A stretch of 64,000 bases of DNA, taken from positions 4,928,001-4,992,000 of the forward strand of contig CH464491.1 of NCBI GenBank assembly GCA_000002445.1, written 5' to 3'. The stretch's first letter is position 1; every line of letters begins with the position of its first letter. The position numbers are program-made. The DNA is from Trypanosoma brucei. Its lineage: Eukaryota. Positions 24,701-32,596 of the stretch are shown one piece after another.

Positions 24701-27700
24701 GAGACACAGCAACTAACGCAAAGAAGCTCTACAAAACACCGAAAACCACTATTGTAAATATTCTTCTAAGAATTCTCATTAAAGTAAATTACTTTTACTT
24801 AAAGTACAATAATGAGCATACAGTAATATAACAAAAGACAATTAAACCGGAAAAGGAAGCTTAATTAGTGTAAACGCTAGTTTTTCTCCAGAATTAACTT
24901 TTTCTACGAGAATGAAGACAAAACGAAGTAACTTATAGTTGCATGGATCCCTGCACAAAGTGTTAAAAACAGAATCAACTGAGAATGAATGTATTCTCAT
25001 AATGTGACTGTGCAAGTATAGAAGGATAAATGGCATGGGTTATGACCAGGTGATTTTGGAAATTATATAAAATTAAGACGTCTGGAAGAAGAGAGGTTAC
25101 CGCGAATTTTTCCATAAATTGAAAATCTTTAAAAACCACAACGCAGAAAAGCGACAAAGATGAACATATTACTAACTAAAAATGTGTATGAAGCATAAAT
25201 GGAAATAAAAAGAATCAAATGTCACCTTTTAAGACAAGCAAAAAACCTGAAACACTAACTAAAAAATCATTCGTTTATGTTTTAACTCTAAGCAAAGCCG
25301 TAGACCAAGACATCAGCCAAAAATATAGACGCTCACTTTTGTGGGCAACGTAAGCAAAAGGCCACATCAAAGCCACCCAGAAGGCAAACGATGGCTGTCT
25401 TCATTTCCTTCTTCGCCACAGTAGCCTTTGTGCTCGTAACTTATGAAACCCATGTGCAAGCAGCGAACAAGAAGCCGCTTGTCAAAGCGGCGTGGAACGC
25501 CGTTTGCGATGTAGCGGCAGAATTATACGACGTAAGTGAAGCAACCAAGGAGGCAACAGCGTCCAAAAGGAGAGTTGTAGACAAGATGCAACAGCAACTC
25601 TTGCGGACACGAATTCTAATTCAAACATTAATAAGCGACCAGGACGTCAAGCGATTCACCACAGTGGCGAAATATCTAGAGACGAAACTAGCAGCGGCGC
25701 TGAAAAATTTACTCGGCTCTGACGCAACAACAGCGGAAGATATACTTACGAAGACGGCCTTTGCCAACGGCCACATAAGGGAGTTCTTGGTTATTGCTTC
25801 TGGAGCAACTCAGAGCGGCAGCGCAGGCTGCATCAGTAACCATGCAAGCGACGGTGGCAGCGAACTCAAAACCCTATCACAACTCATCAGAGAACATGGA
25901 CCATGCAAAGCACTGGAAAACGAGAAGCCAACCGGATACGACAGGACGCAAGCGGTGACAGCAACAGGTTTCAAGCAGTTTACTTCTGGTGGAAGCGCCG
26001 TGTCAGGCAGTGAAAAAGGCTGCCGACTGCTCACAACAGAGAACAGTGAGGGGTACATCGAAGGGACGCTGGACACGCCTGAAGTCGCCATGGCCGGCGG
26101 CCTGCTGACCGCCAGCAGCGCCGGAGGCAAATTCACTGCCCTTGACAACATAGACGCCACCAGCAAGGACGACAAAAACAAAATAATAAAACAAGTATGG
26201 GAATCCCTCAAAAAAAAGCCAACAAAAGTGGCCGAATATACAGACGACGACATCAGCACACTAAAGAGTGAATCGACCTTCCAAGATGCTTTCAGATCCA
26301 TTTTTGGCGCAAGCAAAGACACAGAAGCCGACAGGATCGCAGAGACAATAGAAAAGCAATATCCCAAAAAAGGAAATGACTTTAACAAGCAAATCTGGCA
26401 AAGGATAGCGGACACATCCTTAAAATCAGAGATATCTGGACAAGAAAAGGGAACAAAGATAGGGACAATAGACGATATAGGGACCTTGACGGTCATTTTA
26501 AGAAATTTCACAGGCGAAAGACTAAAAAAAGAACGCGAGAGAGAACAGCAGAAGTCAGAAACCAAATGCAACGCAGAAGCCACTCAACAAGCTATATCAG
26601 CAGACTGCACAAAACTGGAGAAAGCGGAGTGCAAGCCCGACCTGGGATGCAAATATAATTAAACAGCGACTAAATGCGAAAACGATCCAAAAAGCTTGGT
26701 GGTGCAAGCAAACCAAGAAACAGGCAAGACAGATGGGGGTGTAAAATGCTCTGATCATAAAGACCAGTCGACCTGTGAGCAGGCCAATGAAGGAAAGGAC
26801 AAACCTGTTTGTGGACTTAGAAATGGAAGAGAGGACGAAGATTACGAGGATACGGAGAAATGCCGAAATGGAAGTTTTCTTGTAAATAAGAAATTGGATC
26901 CGAGTATGGCTGCGAATAGGAGAATTAAGCCTTCAAGGATTCCAGTTTCCTCGTCAATAAAAATTTCTCTGGTGGCGCCGACCACCGCATCAATGTGGTG
27001 CCAGGGTTTATTTCTCCGTCCAGGAGGAAGCCAAGCGCTCGCATTAAACCCAATCCAACAGGATTGGGGCAAGAAACAGGCTTTCAGCGAACAGAGAAGA
27101 AGCAAGTAGCAGCATCGGCACCCTAGGGTGAAGAAATATATTAGACTGCTTCTTGCGTTTGAAAGTGTACCTCGATTGGGATACATAGGCTTCTACTACT
27201 TCTTAGCGAAGATGTAGAACAGAATCCCGGCCCCGTTATTCGTGGAGCCAAATGGAATGCTGTGGCGTTACCTCATGTAAAACGACTTGACTTGGAGAGG
27301 CGGCTTCAAGAGGACCACGTTGTATTCTGTTTATTGCGGGAGATTTACTCGGCTTCAGCGGGATCACCGCGCTTAAAATAAGAGAATACCAGCATGTAGC
27401 GTTGGAGAGAATTATGCACGGGGCTGGGGTGTAAATCCTAGTGCGAGATGAAATGGAGTGGGGAAAGGGGACATATGAAAAAAGGAGTGCTAGAAAGAGT
27501 GACAGCAACGCTGAGATTTTTGGCTGATCTGAATTTGGCAGTCACTTCAGCTTATTTTCTTAAAAAATCGGTAGTTTTTAACACAGCGTTGGAACAATTA
27601 GCGATAGAAAGATGGCTTCTATTAGAAGAGGCTGATGCCAACTCGCATCATGTGTTGTGGGACCCACTGTGGCCTCAAAACCTTCCCCAACTTTATACAT

Positions 27701-30700: not shown

Positions 30701-32596
30701 ATAATACGGAACAGCAGTCATCACAGGCAACGGTAAGACAAAATGAGTCCATAATATGCACGTTGTGTCACTTGGTGTGTGCACGTTGTCACGCTGGAGA
30801 AGTGCACCTGATGACGATACACGCTTTGTAAAAGGAAAAGGGCGCTGGTAATGAAAAACATTTAAAAATTGGCGGAGCAGGCATAAAAAGGTAAATACAA
30901 GTGCCATGTTTGTGAAACGGAGTTTTAGAGAAGAGTTTTACTAGTGGAGTACATGGTCACACACACCCCTGAAATGATATCGCAGGTTGAGAATCGACAG
31001 AAAAGAAGCAGAAAAGAAGAGGCAGATTCGGAAAGACAAAAGCTACAGTGTCGATGGTTCCATATGAAATATGTGTTTTATGAATGATTAAAAAGGCATA
31101 TGCTAACAAAAAATCCTGAATAGCAGCAAACAGAAGACGAAAAATGAGAATCGACCTGCAGATCATAGCATGGAGGATACGGATGATAAAAAGGACAAAC
31201 TGGAGTGTCAAAGGCGTAAAAGGGTGCTAAAGAGTAAAGCTTGGCAGAAAAGACACGAATGCGTTCTAATATCAGACAACAACACAGAAGACTTCAAAGG
31301 AACAAAAAGCCATTTAAAGAAGTATTTTCCATAAGTGGAAAGGAATACAATTACAGCTAGCTTATTCGTTACATGCGTGAAAAGGACCTAGGACACGATG
31401 AGTCACCGATGCCAAGGACGCGAGTACAGCATTCAACCGTCGAGAAGAAAACGAAAAGGGAAGTCAGTGAGGAAAGGAAGTGAGTGCAGGGGGCAGGGGA
31501 AACAATTGATGAGGAAAGACCGAGAAAAAGGTCAAGAATAGGAAGGCACACAGAAGTTGATGAAGTAAAATATTTTGTGGGCGCAAGGTGAGATAGTGCA
31601 TAAAAGTCACAATACTCGCTGGTATGGCACACACACAAACACACATTAAGGGTGCCAAAACTGTTCAAAGAAAGACAAAAGATGAATCGGTATTAATAAC
31701 TCCTATAATGTAGAAGCCACACCAATGCCCGTACTACCCAATGAGGTGCACACAGAAGCAGTACCGAACAATGCATAATCAAGCGAGACACGGTCAGCCG
31801 AAGAAGGAAGCCGTGCACAACTTGCTGAAGGTCAAATGTGAGGAGTCACCAACCCATCCACTGGTGTGCCCGATATTACTTCCACTAAAGAAAAAAACAA
31901 GCTATAGAGAGAGCCTGACGGAAAAGGAAATATATAACAGTAAGCAGCTGGTACGATTCCTAATGAATATCTTTAAGATAAATGGCCACAATTAACCCAC
32001 TCTATACTCTTACAAAGGGAAATACACTCAAGAAATAAAGGGGAGAAGATCGCCAGAAAAGCTGAATATCCCATCCCCATCTTCCCAGCCGTTGGTAGTA
32101 CAGACAGTCCCTGATATGGAGGGGGAGAAAACGCCATTTCGAAAATGTTTCCCCAGTAGAGACAAAAAAAGGTACAGTTTCAATGGAAGAAGTGAGAATT
32201 GATCCATGGCTATTTAAACATCTTCCAAAGATATGCAGACTATAGAAAGTAGCAGAGCAGCTAATGAACCACATGTAGATTAATTTCACAATTAAAAAAG
32301 AATAAAAAATTTTATCTACTTTTTGCTGACTCTGTAAGATTACTATTTTTAAAATCAAGAACTTTAAAGTTTTAAAAGATTTTGCTCTTTTATTTATTAA
32401 TTTACTATTCTAAGATATTTAACTTTTTTTGATGAAAATGTGAAAATTTGGTAAAATTTGTATTATATTGGACTATGGGTGTAAAATAGTATGTTTATAG
32501 TGTATGAAAAATGGCTGGTACTCTAATTTAGTTTATATTATTTATTTTATGAATATTAACTATAGTTCGAATAGAAATAGTAACAGCAAGGTAATG

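What the first reader, a model, noticed from the sequence alone, without database searches (positions are those of the whole stretch)
26860..32320. DIRE inserted into the GPI-signal codons of a VSG, with candidate target-site duplication and the VSG 3' flank resuming afterwards
The VSG starting at 25391 has a single in-frame TAA (26660) and an open frame. It runs to CRNGSFLVNKK... and a second, tandem CKDSSFLVNKNFS motif. There, at 26971, an ingi-like 5' terminus begins (…ggcgccgaccaccgcatcaatgtggtgccaggg…). About 5.3 kb later the element ends in an A-rich tail (aattaaaaaagaataaaaaatttt). The flanks show possible duplicated target sequence: aataaaaatttctct before versus aataaaaaattttatct after. 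The downstream DNA looks like a normal VSG 3' flank leading into 70-bp repeats at 32591. The VSG-tail motif occurring twice just before the insertion suggests a small tandem duplication or a mosaic junction.
Basis: seen in the sequence. Interest (0 to 1): 0.6.

Follow-up and report, generated by a model that had tools for sequence, protein, structure and literature searches.

The report
Dead retroposon splitting a VSG tail

Summary
An A-type VSG (25391-) has one in-frame TAA (26660). It ends in two partial tails: NGSFLVNKKLDPSMAA in frame, then an out-of-frame fragment of a different tail subtype (..AFKDSSFLVNKNF, 26906-26966). The two meet at a shared ATGGCTGC. A degenerate ingi-clade retroposon follows, at about 26967-32300. 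It has the 79-bp 5' signature, a 2A-like motif, colinear endonuclease, RT and RNase H remnants at 24-43% identity to the window's own Tbingi, 76-115 stops per frame, 41-42% GC and an A-rich 3' end.

The best target-site duplication is the clade's usual 12 bp: AATAAAAATTT (26956-26966) and AATAAAAAATTT (32301-32312). After it, the rest of a GPI signal, a normal VSG 3' flank and a 70-bp repeat resume. The rebuilt empty site aligns through the junction with intact VSG tails.

Three T. brucei database "VSGs" of 572 aa read through the same junction into the DIRE. The insertion is therefore real, old and copied along with the gene.

The main caveat is a 100-N gap (29645-29744) inside the element. 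Its flanks are two 78%-identical copies of the same segment, so internal continuity is unproven.

This is an ordinary example of a known kind.

The parts
24404..24423 (+). Core of the 70-bp-type repeat upstream of the VSG (5' limit of the cassette)
   Evidence: Fuzzy match to the 70-bp repeat core. About 1 kb upstream of the ATG, as in the other cassettes of the window.
25391..26905 (+). VSG pseudogene coding region: signal peptide, A-type N-terminal domain, C-terminal domain
   Evidence: Translation. Pfam PF00913 E=2.6e-69. 92-98% identical to T. brucei VSG entries P0002, P0006 and P0007.
26660..26662 (+). Single in-frame TAA. The three 572-aa database relatives (P0002, P0006, P0007) have E at this position; P0010 also has E and P0001 has D.
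   Evidence: CKYN*TATKC in the window, CKYNETATKC in P0002.
26867..26914 (+). Tail 1: first 16 codons of the gene's own GPI-anchor signal (NGSFLVNKKLDPSMAA), cut short
   Evidence: Homologous to the intact tail of the VSG at 51.8 kb(-), EKCRNFSFLLNKKFTLMDAAFVKLAVF*.
26906..26913 (+). ATGGCTGC shared by tail 1 (S-MAA) and by the ..DGCKW.. end of the second C-terminal fragment. This is the tail 1/tail 2 junction and a possible microhomology join.
   Evidence: Read directly from the sequence. The alignment to 14782-14841 starts exactly here.
26906..26966 (+). Tail 2: 61-bp fragment of the 3' end of a different VSG (YGCE*EN*AFKDSSFLVNKNF), +2 frame relative to the VSG
   Evidence: 85% identical to 14782-14841 and 84% to 36771-36820. 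78-81% to three other tails against 66% to tail 1.
26956..26966 (+). Upstream copy of the target-site duplication (AATAAAAATTT; one A lost). The boundary is ambiguous by 1-5 nt, because the match can be extended to ..CTCT at 26970.
   Evidence: A 12-bp TSD is the rule for the ingi clade (PMC3820030; PMC2323293).
26967..32300 (+). [quoted passage not shown]
26967..27047 (+). 79-bp retroposon signature (Pr77) at the 5' end
   Evidence: Alignment A3: 53 of 77 positions invariant against the ingi 5' ends at 13534(-) and 7707(+).
27211..27234 (+). 2A-like motif DVEQNPGP, 244 nt from the start. Tbingi has DVEENPGP 239 nt from its start.
27484..28170 (+). Remnant of the apurinic-type endonuclease domain
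   Evidence: tblastn with the window's ingi ORF (aa 3-307), 24-35% identity, 2 in-frame stops. The ingi ORF carries Pfam Exo_endo_phos_2.
28116..29313 (+). Remnant of the reverse transcriptase domain. FADD is read in another frame, and there are at least 4 frame changes.
   Evidence: tblastn. Whole-library phmmer with 28116-28532 gave 1010 hits; the best named ones are T. vivax proteins and a 'Tcoingi protein'.
29420..29644 (+). L copy of the linker before RNase H (ends ..AWTDGS). This is the end of the left contig.
29645..29744 (.). 100-N assembly gap
29745..29970 (+). R copy of the same linker (ends ..MRADGS). This is the start of the right contig. 78.5% identical to L, with 29 transitions and 19 transversions.
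29989..30595 (+). Remnant of the RNase H domain
   Evidence: tblastn against ingi ORF630 aa 7-201, 36-43% identity, E=5e-31, one frame change, 2 stops. That ORF carries Pfam RNase_H.
31729..31971 (+). Remnant of the C-terminal region of the ingi ORF
   Evidence: tblastn against ORF630 aa 486-564, 30% identity, E=1e-5.
32290..32300 (+). A-rich 3' end (AATTAAAAAAG). Compare the Tbingi 3' end ..AAAATTCAAAAAAAA.
32301..32312 (+). Downstream copy of the target-site duplication (AATAAAAAATTT)
32301..32351 (+). Rest of the GPI-anchor signal (NKKFYLLFADSVRLLF, then a stop one T out of register)
   Evidence: Gapless alignment to the GPI-signal DNA of the VSG at 51.8 kb(-), z=6.1. The empty-site reconstruction aligns through the junction.
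32352..32590 (+). VSG 3' flank (3' UTR-like), with a degenerate copy of the conserved 16-mer near 32414-32423
   Evidence: Alignment A2 and shuffle tests, z=4.3-13.4. Exact or near-exact 16-mer copies occur elsewhere in the window, one of them (43549) downstream of a VSG. The identity of the 16-mer is from my own knowledge.
32591..32720 (+). One 70-bp-type repeat, (TAA)n plus a GT-rich core, that opens the next cassette

Best explanation
An autonomous non-LTR retrotransposon of the ingi clade inserted by target-primed reverse transcription into the GPI-anchor-signal codons of a silent array VSG. Its lineage is closer to the T. vivax/T. congolense-type ingi elements than to today's Tbingi.

Inferred steps, following the clade's known mechanism: the element's endonuclease nicked the bottom strand at the A-rich NKKF codons (AAT AAA AAA TTT), which lie just after a pyrimidine-rich stretch. 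The poly(A) end of the RNA primed cDNA synthesis there. A second nick 12 nt away produced the 12-bp duplication.

The element then decayed into a DIRE, with stops, frameshifts and GC drift towards the genome background.

The VSG 3' end that received it was, or later became, a hybrid of two tails. The gene's own GPI signal is cut after ..SMAA and joined at a shared ATGGCTGC to the last ~60 bp of another VSG's coding region. This looks like the scar of an illegitimate or short-homology 3' recombination (inferred).

Consequences: the gene has no usable GPI signal, and its frame runs on into the DIRE. This copy additionally has a TAA. It can contribute its N-terminal domain only through segmental gene conversion that supplies another 3' end ('3' donation').

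The VSG+DIRE composite has since been duplicated along with the gene.
For: Shown:
- DIRE hallmarks are present: the 79-bp signature; a 2A-like motif at the same offset as in Tbingi; colinear endonuclease, RT, RNase H and C-terminal homology at 24-43% identity; 76, 115 and 96 stops in the three frames; a longest stop-free stretch of 170 codons; at least 6 frame changes and at least 8 in-frame stops within the alignable parts; GC of 42.2% and 40.9% against 52.7% for the window's ingi; an A-rich end.
- The RT fragment is 51-54% identical to T. vivax proteins and 42% to a 'Tcoingi protein', against 32% to Tbingi.
- The duplicated target abuts both element ends.
- Removing 11-13 nt best restores an intact tail in a scan against six reference tails.
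- The post flank re-starts at NKKF and aligns without gaps with an intact GPI signal, z=6.1.
- The empty-site reconstruction aligns through the junction.
- The 3' flank is homologous to five others, z=4.3-13.4.
- The identical double tail plus DIRE 5' end is read in three 572-aa T. brucei entries (..SIKISLVAPTTASMWCQGLF..EQRRSK). Two of them carry the same '1125' strain prefix.
- Entries of 468 aa have the same N-terminal domain with a normal CTD and GPI signal.

From the literature:
- The TSD is 12 bp in the ingi clade, and insertion is relatively site-specific (PMC3820030; PMC2323293).
- 3' donation lets VSGs with damaged CTD regions be expressed (PMC3708902).
Against: - The TSD match is short and AT-rich. 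It is confounded by homology between VSG tails: tail 1 matches the post flank about as well over 16 nt. Alone it gives p of about 0.01-0.03.
- The boundaries are ambiguous. CTCTGGTGG at 26967-26975 resembles both the ingi 5' end and the VSG tail consensus CTCTGATGG.
- The fragment before the DIRE is most like the tails at 14.8, 36.8 and 63.0 kb, whereas the flank after it is most like the tail at 51.8 kb.
- The upstream endonuclease signature published for the ingi6 group (TTTTxxxxxA^A) is only partly matched.
- The interior of the element is not continuous in the assembly. A 100-N gap is flanked by two truly diverged copies of one segment (78.5% identical, transitions:transversions 29:19).
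- No DNA of the related loci could be retrieved, so an empty-site paralogue was not found.
Confidence: 0.8

Rival explanations
1. The outer ends come from one insertion event, but the interior is not a single element. Either two DIREs lie in tandem (TSD-A-TSD-B-TSD, a known ingi-clade arrangement), or the element carries a real internal duplication, or something else is nested within it. The 100 Ns would then hide anything from 0 bp to several kb.
For: - L (29420-29644) and R (29745-29970) are two copies of the same pre-RNase H linker at 78.5% identity. The excess of transitions (29:19) points to real divergence rather than read noise.
- This divergence far exceeds the roughly 5% amino-acid differences seen among the family's copies in the DIRE-derived peptide.
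- Tandem arrangements separated by a TSD are described for this clade (PMC3820030).
Against: - The left half plus the right half minus the overlap gives about 5.0 kb, one colinear full-length element against 5242 bp for Tbingi.
- Under the tandem model, two arbitrary contig ends would overlap by only about 226 bp roughly 6% of the time (my own estimate).
- Scaffolders that place contigs on a reference conventionally write 100 N between contigs they cannot merge (from my own knowledge, not tested).
Confidence: 0.3
2. There was no in-situ insertion into this gene. A DIRE already sitting in another VSG's tail, or next to one, was brought here by ectopic recombination or gene conversion between VSG 3' ends. 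The 'TSD' would then be only the overlap of two homologous tails.
For: - The locus already shows one illegitimate tail-to-tail junction, at ATGGCTGC.
- The pre- and post-DIRE tail pieces have different best matches among the window's tails.
- VSG tails are similar enough that any overlapping pair mimics a TSD.
Against: - The overlap is the clade-specific 12 nt and lies flush against a full-length 5' signature start and against the A-tail. Recombination between tails gives no reason for that geometry.
- Even under this model the DIRE would have inserted into tail 2 elsewhere. Only the history of the first 1.5 kb of the gene would change.
Confidence: 0.1
3. Tail 2 is a 5' transduction. A source DIRE lying in a VSG tail was transcribed from upstream, and the tail 2 fragment travelled with it into tail 1.
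For: Tail 2 is short (61 bp) and lies directly 5' of the element. The flank after the element also resembles the continuation of a tail homologous to tail 1.
Against: - The 12 nt before 26906 (GGATCCGAGT..) do not match the 12 nt after the A-tail.
- The post flank re-starts at NKKF, which lies upstream of where tail 1 breaks off. That would require a 30-nt duplication at 63% identity, which is unlike the clade's 12-bp TSD.
Confidence: 0.03

Closest known systems
TbDIRE: degenerate ingi/L1Tc-related elements of T. brucei, in particular the extinct subgroup related to Tvingi/Tcoingi (called TbDIRE2 / ingi6-related in PMC3820030)
   Same: - 79-bp 5' signature and an A-rich 3' end.
- The ingi-type order of domains.
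- Heavy decay.
- A vestigial TSD of about 12 bp.
- An RT fragment closer to T. vivax/Tcoingi-type proteins than to Tbingi.
   Different: - GC of 41-42% is below the published TbDIRE mean of 48.7%, so this copy is very decayed.
- The upstream endonuclease signature is only partly matched.
- Subclade assignment rests on one 139-aa fragment, not on a phylogeny.
- Internal continuity is unknown because of the gap.
Tbingi, the potentially active 5.2-kb T. brucei LINE. A copy lies in this window at 8293-13534(-).
   Same: Same clade, same 5' signature, 2A-like motif at the same offset, same domain order, and a similar total length once the duplicated overlap is removed.
   Different: - Only 24-43% amino-acid identity.
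- No long ORF, against 856-aa and 630-aa ORFs in the Tbingi copy.
- GC of 41-42% against 52.7%.
- No DNA-level match beyond the signature.
- The Tbingi (ingi4) target signature xTxTxxTxxxxx does not fit the TSD.
VSG array pseudogenes with damaged 3' ends that are used through segmental gene conversion or '3' donation' (Hall et al. 2013, PMC3708902)
   Same: - An intact-looking A-type N-terminal domain with an unusable C-terminal end.
- Database VSGs with the same N-terminal domain and a different, normal CTD and GPI signal (P0001, P0010).
   Different: - Here the damage is a retroposon insertion plus a doubled tail rather than only frameshifts or stops.
- Whether P0001 and P0010 are expressed mosaics derived from this family was not verified with the tools.
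RHS (retrotransposon hot spot) pseudogenes carrying ingi/RIME insertions at one conserved position (from my own knowledge)
   Same: A site-selective ingi-clade element interrupting a member of a large subtelomeric multigene family at a conserved sequence.
   Different: Only one insertion event is documented here. Its several copies are explained by duplication, so there is no evidence that the VSG tail is a recurrent hot spot.

Membership tests
[quoted passage not shown] | 79-bp signature shared by trypanosomatid retroposons at the 5' end | tested here: met
   Alignment A3: 53 of 77 positions from 26967 are invariant against two Tbingi 5' ends. Definition from PMC2323293.
[quoted passage not shown] | Recognisable homology to the ingi/L1Tc ORF (endonuclease, RT, RNase H, in that order) | tested here: met
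   - Colinear tblastn hits with the window's ingi ORFs, best E values 9e-14, 3e-13 and 5e-31.
- 1010 library hits to the RT fragment.
- Pfam alone did not detect the broken frames of the left half.
[quoted passage not shown] | Degenerate: no long ORF, many stops and frameshifts | tested here: met
   76, 115 and 96 stops in the three frames. The longest stop-free stretch is 170 codons. At least 6 frame changes and at least 8 in-frame stops within the aligned segments.
[quoted passage not shown] | Adenosine-rich 3' end | tested here: met
   AATTAAAAAAG at 32290-32300, similar to the Tbingi end AAAATTCAAAAAAAA.
[quoted passage not shown] | 12-bp target-site duplication, possibly vestigial | tested here: met
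   AATAAAAATTT and AATAAAAAATTT lie flush with both ends. The offset scan peaks at 11-13 nt. On its own this is weak, with an empirical p of about 0.013.
[quoted passage not shown] | GC content above the genome background (published TbDIRE mean 48.7%, genome 41%) | tested here: not met
   42.2% and 40.9% for the two halves, against 41.7% for the window. This fits extreme decay. It is a tendency of the family, not a strict criterion.
ingi6-type TbDIRE subgroup (PMC3820030) | Upstream signature TTTTxxxxxA^A followed by the 12-nt TSD | tested here: inconclusive
   With the nick placed at ..GTCA^ATAAAAAATTT, positions -1 and +1 are A as required. T is found at -11 to -9 rather than -10 to -7, with C at -8 and -7. 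Read by eye; signature.
ingi6-type TbDIRE subgroup (PMC3820030) | RT groups with Tvingi/Tcoingi-type elements in a phylogeny | tested here: inconclusive
   Only pairwise identities for one 139-aa fragment are available: 51-54% to T. vivax proteins, 42% to a 'Tcoingi protein' of T. conorhini, and 32% to Tbingi. No tree was built.
Tbingi (ingi4) copy | High DNA identity to Tbingi and the ingi4 target signature (TSD xTxTxxTxxxxx) | tested here: not met
   blastn finds only the 5' signature. The TSD AATAAAAAATTT has A at positions 2 and 4.
VSG (functional gene) | N-terminal domain plus C-terminal domain | tested here: met
   PF00913 E=2.6e-69. The 93%-identical P0002 carries PF10659 plus PF00913.
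VSG (functional gene) | Uninterrupted ORF ending in a complete hydrophobic GPI-anchor signal | tested here: not met
   There is a TAA at 26660. Tail 1 is cut after SMAA, tail 2 is out of frame, and the rest of the signal lies 5.3 kb away. The gene is therefore a pseudogene.
VSG array cassette | 70-bp repeat upstream and a conserved 3' flank downstream | tested here: met
   Repeat core at 24404. 3' flank homology z=4.3-13.4. The next 70-bp repeat is at 32591.

The most novel reading that the evidence does not exclude
The conserved NKKF codons of VSG GPI signals (pyrimidine-rich tract followed by AATAARAAATT) were a preferred target of the extinct Tvingi/Tcoingi-like endonuclease. The resulting VSG+DIRE unit has been propagated through the archive as an enlarged cassette. 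In that cassette, the 5-kb DIRE separates the coding region from its 3' homology block and so changes how this VSG family can be copied into expression sites: it would force 3' donation or act as a conversion boundary.
Probability: 0.08. Interest if true: 0.45.

Novelty: new member of a known kind. Interest (0 to 1): 0.22.

Why it matters
The main value is for annotation.\n\n1. The locus should be annotated as a VSG pseudogene plus a DIRE, with a warning about the gap.\n2. Three public 'VSG' proteins of 572 aa (APD74551.1, APD73971.1, ARB50527.1) end in about 65 residues that are not VSG sequence. These residues come from out-of-frame tail 2 and from the translated retroposon 5' signature. That affects VSG repertoire counts and analyses of C-terminal and GPI-signal sequences.\n3. 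The locus gives a dated example of a DIRE with a still-readable 12-bp TSD inside a coding sequence whose undisrupted form is known. This can help define the target preference of an extinct ingi lineage.\n4. The tail 1/tail 2 join at ATGGCTGC is a small fossil of an imprecise 3' boundary of VSG recombination.\n\nNone of this changes current understanding of antigenic variation.

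Tried and rejected
- **Searching for the source locus in other assemblies.** The look-up of encoding contigs was run with four window ORFs and two database VSGs. Nothing was on record, so the gap could not be bridged and no empty-site paralogue was found.\n- **DIRE ORF next to the gap.** The search for homologous proteins gave no hit.\n- **The 84-aa chimeric tail.** The same tool found nothing, although P0002, P0006 and P0007 contain it. 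I treat this as a tool miss, not as evidence.\n- **Two 50-aa 'cluster members' (P0008, P0009).** They are unrelated sequences.\n- **Pfam on raw three-frame translations of the left half.** No RT or endonuclease hit, because the frames are too broken. The window's own Tbingi was used as the reference instead.\n- **Rfam.** No family matched anywhere in the window, and nothing meaningful matched the 5' signature.\n- **Phage collection search.** Irrelevant, no match.\n- **Rejected: tandem duplication of tail 1.** The two tails are 66% identical, while tail 2 is 78-81% identical to other tails.\n- **Rejected: 5' transduction of tail 2.** There is no TSD at that boundary.\n- **Rejected: the L/R overlap as low-quality read ends.** Transitions outnumber transversions 29:19 with few indels.\n- **Rejected: decayed Tbingi.** Only 24-43% amino-acid identity, no DNA match, and the wrong target signature.\n- **Weakened: the shared AATAAAAA variant as proof that the two TSD copies are sisters.** One of seven other tails in the window, at 59645(-), has it too.

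Full report
**Setting.** The window is a Trypanosoma brucei-type subtelomeric VSG array.
- 70-bp repeats and VSG-like ORFs run on the + strand from about 13.6 to 44 kb and on the - strand from about 49 kb onwards.
- The cassette in question has a 70-bp repeat core at 24404, a VSG starting at 25391, and the next 70-bp-type repeat at 32591.

**The VSG.**
- Translation from 25391 is open for 572 codons to 27109, except for a single TAA at 26660.
- The first 423 aa carry an A-type VSG N-terminal domain (PF00913, E=2.6e-69).
- The closest database proteins are T. brucei VSGs: P0007 (ARB50527.1, 98%), P0002 (VSG 1125.4013, 93%) and P0006 (VSG 1125.2093, 92%). All have E where the window has the stop.

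**Two tails.**
- In frame, the gene reaches EKCRNGSFLVNKKLDPSMAA. This matches the intact end of the homologous C-terminal domain of the VSG at 51.8 kb(-), EKCRNFSFLLNKKFTLMDAAFVKLAVF*.
- The rest of that signal is missing. From 26906 the DNA matches the very end of other VSG coding regions: 85% to 14782-14841 and 84% to 36771-36820.
- In the +2 frame this stretch reads YGCE*EN*AFKDSSFLVNKNF.
- Tail 2 is 66% identical to tail 1 but 78-81% identical to the tails at 14.8, 36.8 and 63.0 kb. It is a piece of a different tail subtype, not a tandem copy.
- The switch lies within ATGGCTGC (26906-26913). This octamer belongs both to S-M-A-A of tail 1 and to the D-G-C of the ..DGCKWE.. motif that precedes tail 2-type ends. 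I infer a short-homology join at that point.

**The element.**
- From 26967 the sequence CTCTGGTGGCGCCGACCACC..GTGGTGCCAGGG aligns with the 5' ends of two Tbingi sequences in the same window, at 13534(-) and 7707(+). 53 of 77 positions are invariant. This is the 79-bp signature that defines trypanosomatid retroposons (PMC2323293).
- A 2A-like DVEQNPGP lies 244 nt from the start. Tbingi has DVEENPGP at 239 nt.
- The window holds a nearly intact Tbingi at 8293-13534(-), with Pfam endonuclease, RT, RNase H and zinc-finger hits. Its two ORFs served as the reference.
- They match the element colinearly: endonuclease 27484-28170, RT 28140-29313, RNase H 29989-30595 and the C-terminal region 31729-31971. 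Identity is 24-43%, with at least 6 frame changes and at least 8 in-frame stops in the aligned parts alone.
- The three frames carry 76, 115 and 96 stops, and the longest stop-free stretch is 170 codons.
- GC is 42.2% and 40.9% for the two halves, at background level, against 52.7% for the Tbingi. The literature gives 52.3% for ingi, 48.7% for TbDIRE and 41% for the genome.
- There is no DNA-level similarity to Tbingi beyond the signature.
- A whole-library phmmer search with the stop-free RT fragment 28116-28532 found its best named relatives in T. vivax (51-54% identity) and a 'Tcoingi protein' of T. conorhini (42%). Identity to Tbingi is 32%.
- The element is therefore a DIRE, probably of an extinct lineage related to Tvingi/Tcoingi-type elements rather than a decayed Tbingi. 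That last step rests on one fragment and no tree.

**Ends and target site.**
- The 3' end is AATTAAAAAAG (32290-32300), resembling the Tbingi end AAAATTCAAAAAAAA.
- Directly after it comes AATAAAAAATTT (32301-32312). Directly before the canonical 5' start comes AATAAAAATTT (26956-26966).
- This gives a 12-bp duplication with one lost A, the size fixed for the ingi clade (PMC3820030; PMC2323293).
The CTCT could be microhomology, and CTCTGGTGG also resembles the VSG tail consensus CTCTGATGG. The boundaries are therefore uncertain by 1-5 nt at the TSD/5' start, and by up to 9 nt if CTCTGGTGG belongs to the VSG tail.
- Alone, the match is weak. 1.3% of all 50-nt windows, and 5 of 188 AT-rich ones, score as well. 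Tail 1 also resembles the post flank, because all VSG tails are homologous.

**Why the insertion is convincing: the geometry.**
- The post flank re-starts at the NKKF codons and aligns without gaps with the GPI-signal DNA of the 51.8-kb VSG (z=6.1). It reads NKKFYLLFADSVRLLF, followed by a stop one T out of register.
- Pre-flank plus post-flank with one TSD copy removed aligns through the junction with intact VSG 3' ends at 63.0 and 51.8 kb.
- In a scan of how many post-flank bases must be removed to best restore a tail, against six references, the mean score rises from 29 at 0 nt to a maximum at 11-13 nt.
- The following 278 bp align with five other VSG 3' flanks of the window, z=4.3-13.4, each above all 200 shuffles. 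They lead into a 70-bp-type repeat.

**Independent confirmation of the 5' junction.**
- P0002, P0006 and P0007 are 572 aa long and end ..KKLDLSMAANRRIKLSRIPVSSSIKISLVAPTTASMWCQGLF..EQRRSK. This is the same read-through of tail 1, out-of-frame tail 2 and the DIRE signature.
- The junction is therefore not an assembly artefact.
- It is shared by several gene copies that differ by 2-8% in protein sequence.
- Two of these copies carry the same '1125' prefix. I infer from the name that they come from the same strain.
- The insertion predates the duplication of this small family, and at least the junction was copied with the gene.
- These entries are in effect mis-annotated chimeras.
- P0001 and P0010 (468 aa) have the same N-terminal domain. 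Just after CKYN(E/D), at the position of the window's TAA, they switch to a different, complete CTD and GPI signal.
- This is what '3' donation' would produce (PMC3708902). I could not verify that these two are expressed cDNAs.

**The gap.**
- Positions 29645-29744 are 100 Ns.
- The left contig ends ..AWTDGS. The right contig begins with a second copy of the preceding ~226 bp and reaches its own ..ADGS at 29970.
- The two copies are 78.5% identical, with 29 transitions, 19 transversions and few indels. They are truly diverged copies, not noisy read ends.
- The two halves minus the overlap give about 5.0 kb, one colinear full-length element.
- Three readings remain open: a small real internal duplication; contigs that a scaffolder could not merge because one end derives from a paralogous DIRE; or a larger hidden structure such as tandem DIREs sharing the TSD.
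- In each case the outer ends still point to one insertion event, but 'one 5.3-kb DIRE' is not demonstrated.

**Mechanism.**
- Shown: a retroposon remnant with clade hallmarks lies between two overlapping halves of a VSG GPI-signal sequence, and the frame of the gene runs on into the element.
- Inferred from the established TPRT model for the ingi clade: a first nick at the A-rich NKKF codons downstream of a pyrimidine-rich tract, a second nick 12 nt away, and decay thereafter.
- The published ingi6-type upstream signature is only partly matched. The Tbingi (ingi4) signature is not matched.
- Inferred: the double tail arose by an imprecise 3' recombination at ATGGCTGC. Whether this happened before or after the insertion cannot be told, because every known copy has both features.

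**Verdict.** This is a well-supported but ordinary case of a known kind: a DIRE-disrupted VSG pseudogene in a silent array. Its value is for annotation and as a minor example.

Noticed in passing
window 7707-13534: A nearly intact Tbingi lies on the - strand at 8293-13534 (5242 bp, ORFs of 856 and 630 aa, Pfam endonuclease/RT/RNase H/zinc finger). Its poly(A) abuts a + strand ingi 5' fragment (7707-8283) that is cut at ..GTCGGCAT. The sequences flanking the - strand ingi show no TSD. This inverted ingi/ingi junction sits where a - strand cassette (70-bp repeat at 4165) meets the + strand VSG array.
   Followed up: partly
window 29645-29744; 15362-15461; 49083-49182; single Ns 48419-48831: There are three 100-N gaps: one inside the DIRE, one inside a long TAA/ATA repeat, and one in a VSG 3' flank. 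Scattered single Ns also occur. The assembly is a draft in these places, and structural claims across them are unsafe.
   Followed up: partly
database proteins P0002, P0006, P0007 (APD74551.1, APD73971.1, ARB50527.1), corresponding to window 26915-27109: Public 572-aa 'VSG' entries end in residues translated from an out-of-frame VSG tail and from the 79-bp retroposon signature (..NRRIKLSRIPVSSSIKISLVAPTTASMWCQGLF..EQRRSK). This is an ORF-calling artefact in VSG repertoire sets.
   Followed up: yes
database proteins P0001, P0010 (ABN70728.1, AGQ49922.1) versus window 25391-26680: These 468-aa VSGs share this N-terminal domain (about 98% identical over the first 423 residues by my count). Just after CKYN(E/D), the site of the window's TAA, they switch to a different complete CTD and GPI signal (SNSFLIKKAPLLLAVLLF). 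This is consistent with 3' donation or mosaic formation. Their origin (cDNA or genomic) was not checked.
   Followed up: partly
window 48000-48900: A GC-rich island (57-65% GC against 42% for the window) carries a G-rich 23-bp repeat (48051-48095), scattered Ns and a long P/S/T-rich spurious ORF on the - strand with no Pfam hit. It lies at the point where the + and - strand VSG arrays converge.
   Followed up: no
window 13647-14843, 35335-36816 and other VSG ORFs: Several neighbouring VSG ORFs end in ..RIPVSSSI.., which is the KDSSFLVN tail read in the wrong frame. They too are pseudogenes, with a frameshift just before the GPI signal. Only some ORFs in the window look complete.
   Followed up: partly
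window 59645-59668 (-): Another VSG tail with the uncommon AATAAAAAATT variant of the NKK codons (TTCCTCGTCAATAAAAAATTGGAC). It is the closest tail in the window to the inferred pre-insertion target, but it carries no retroposon.
   Followed up: partly
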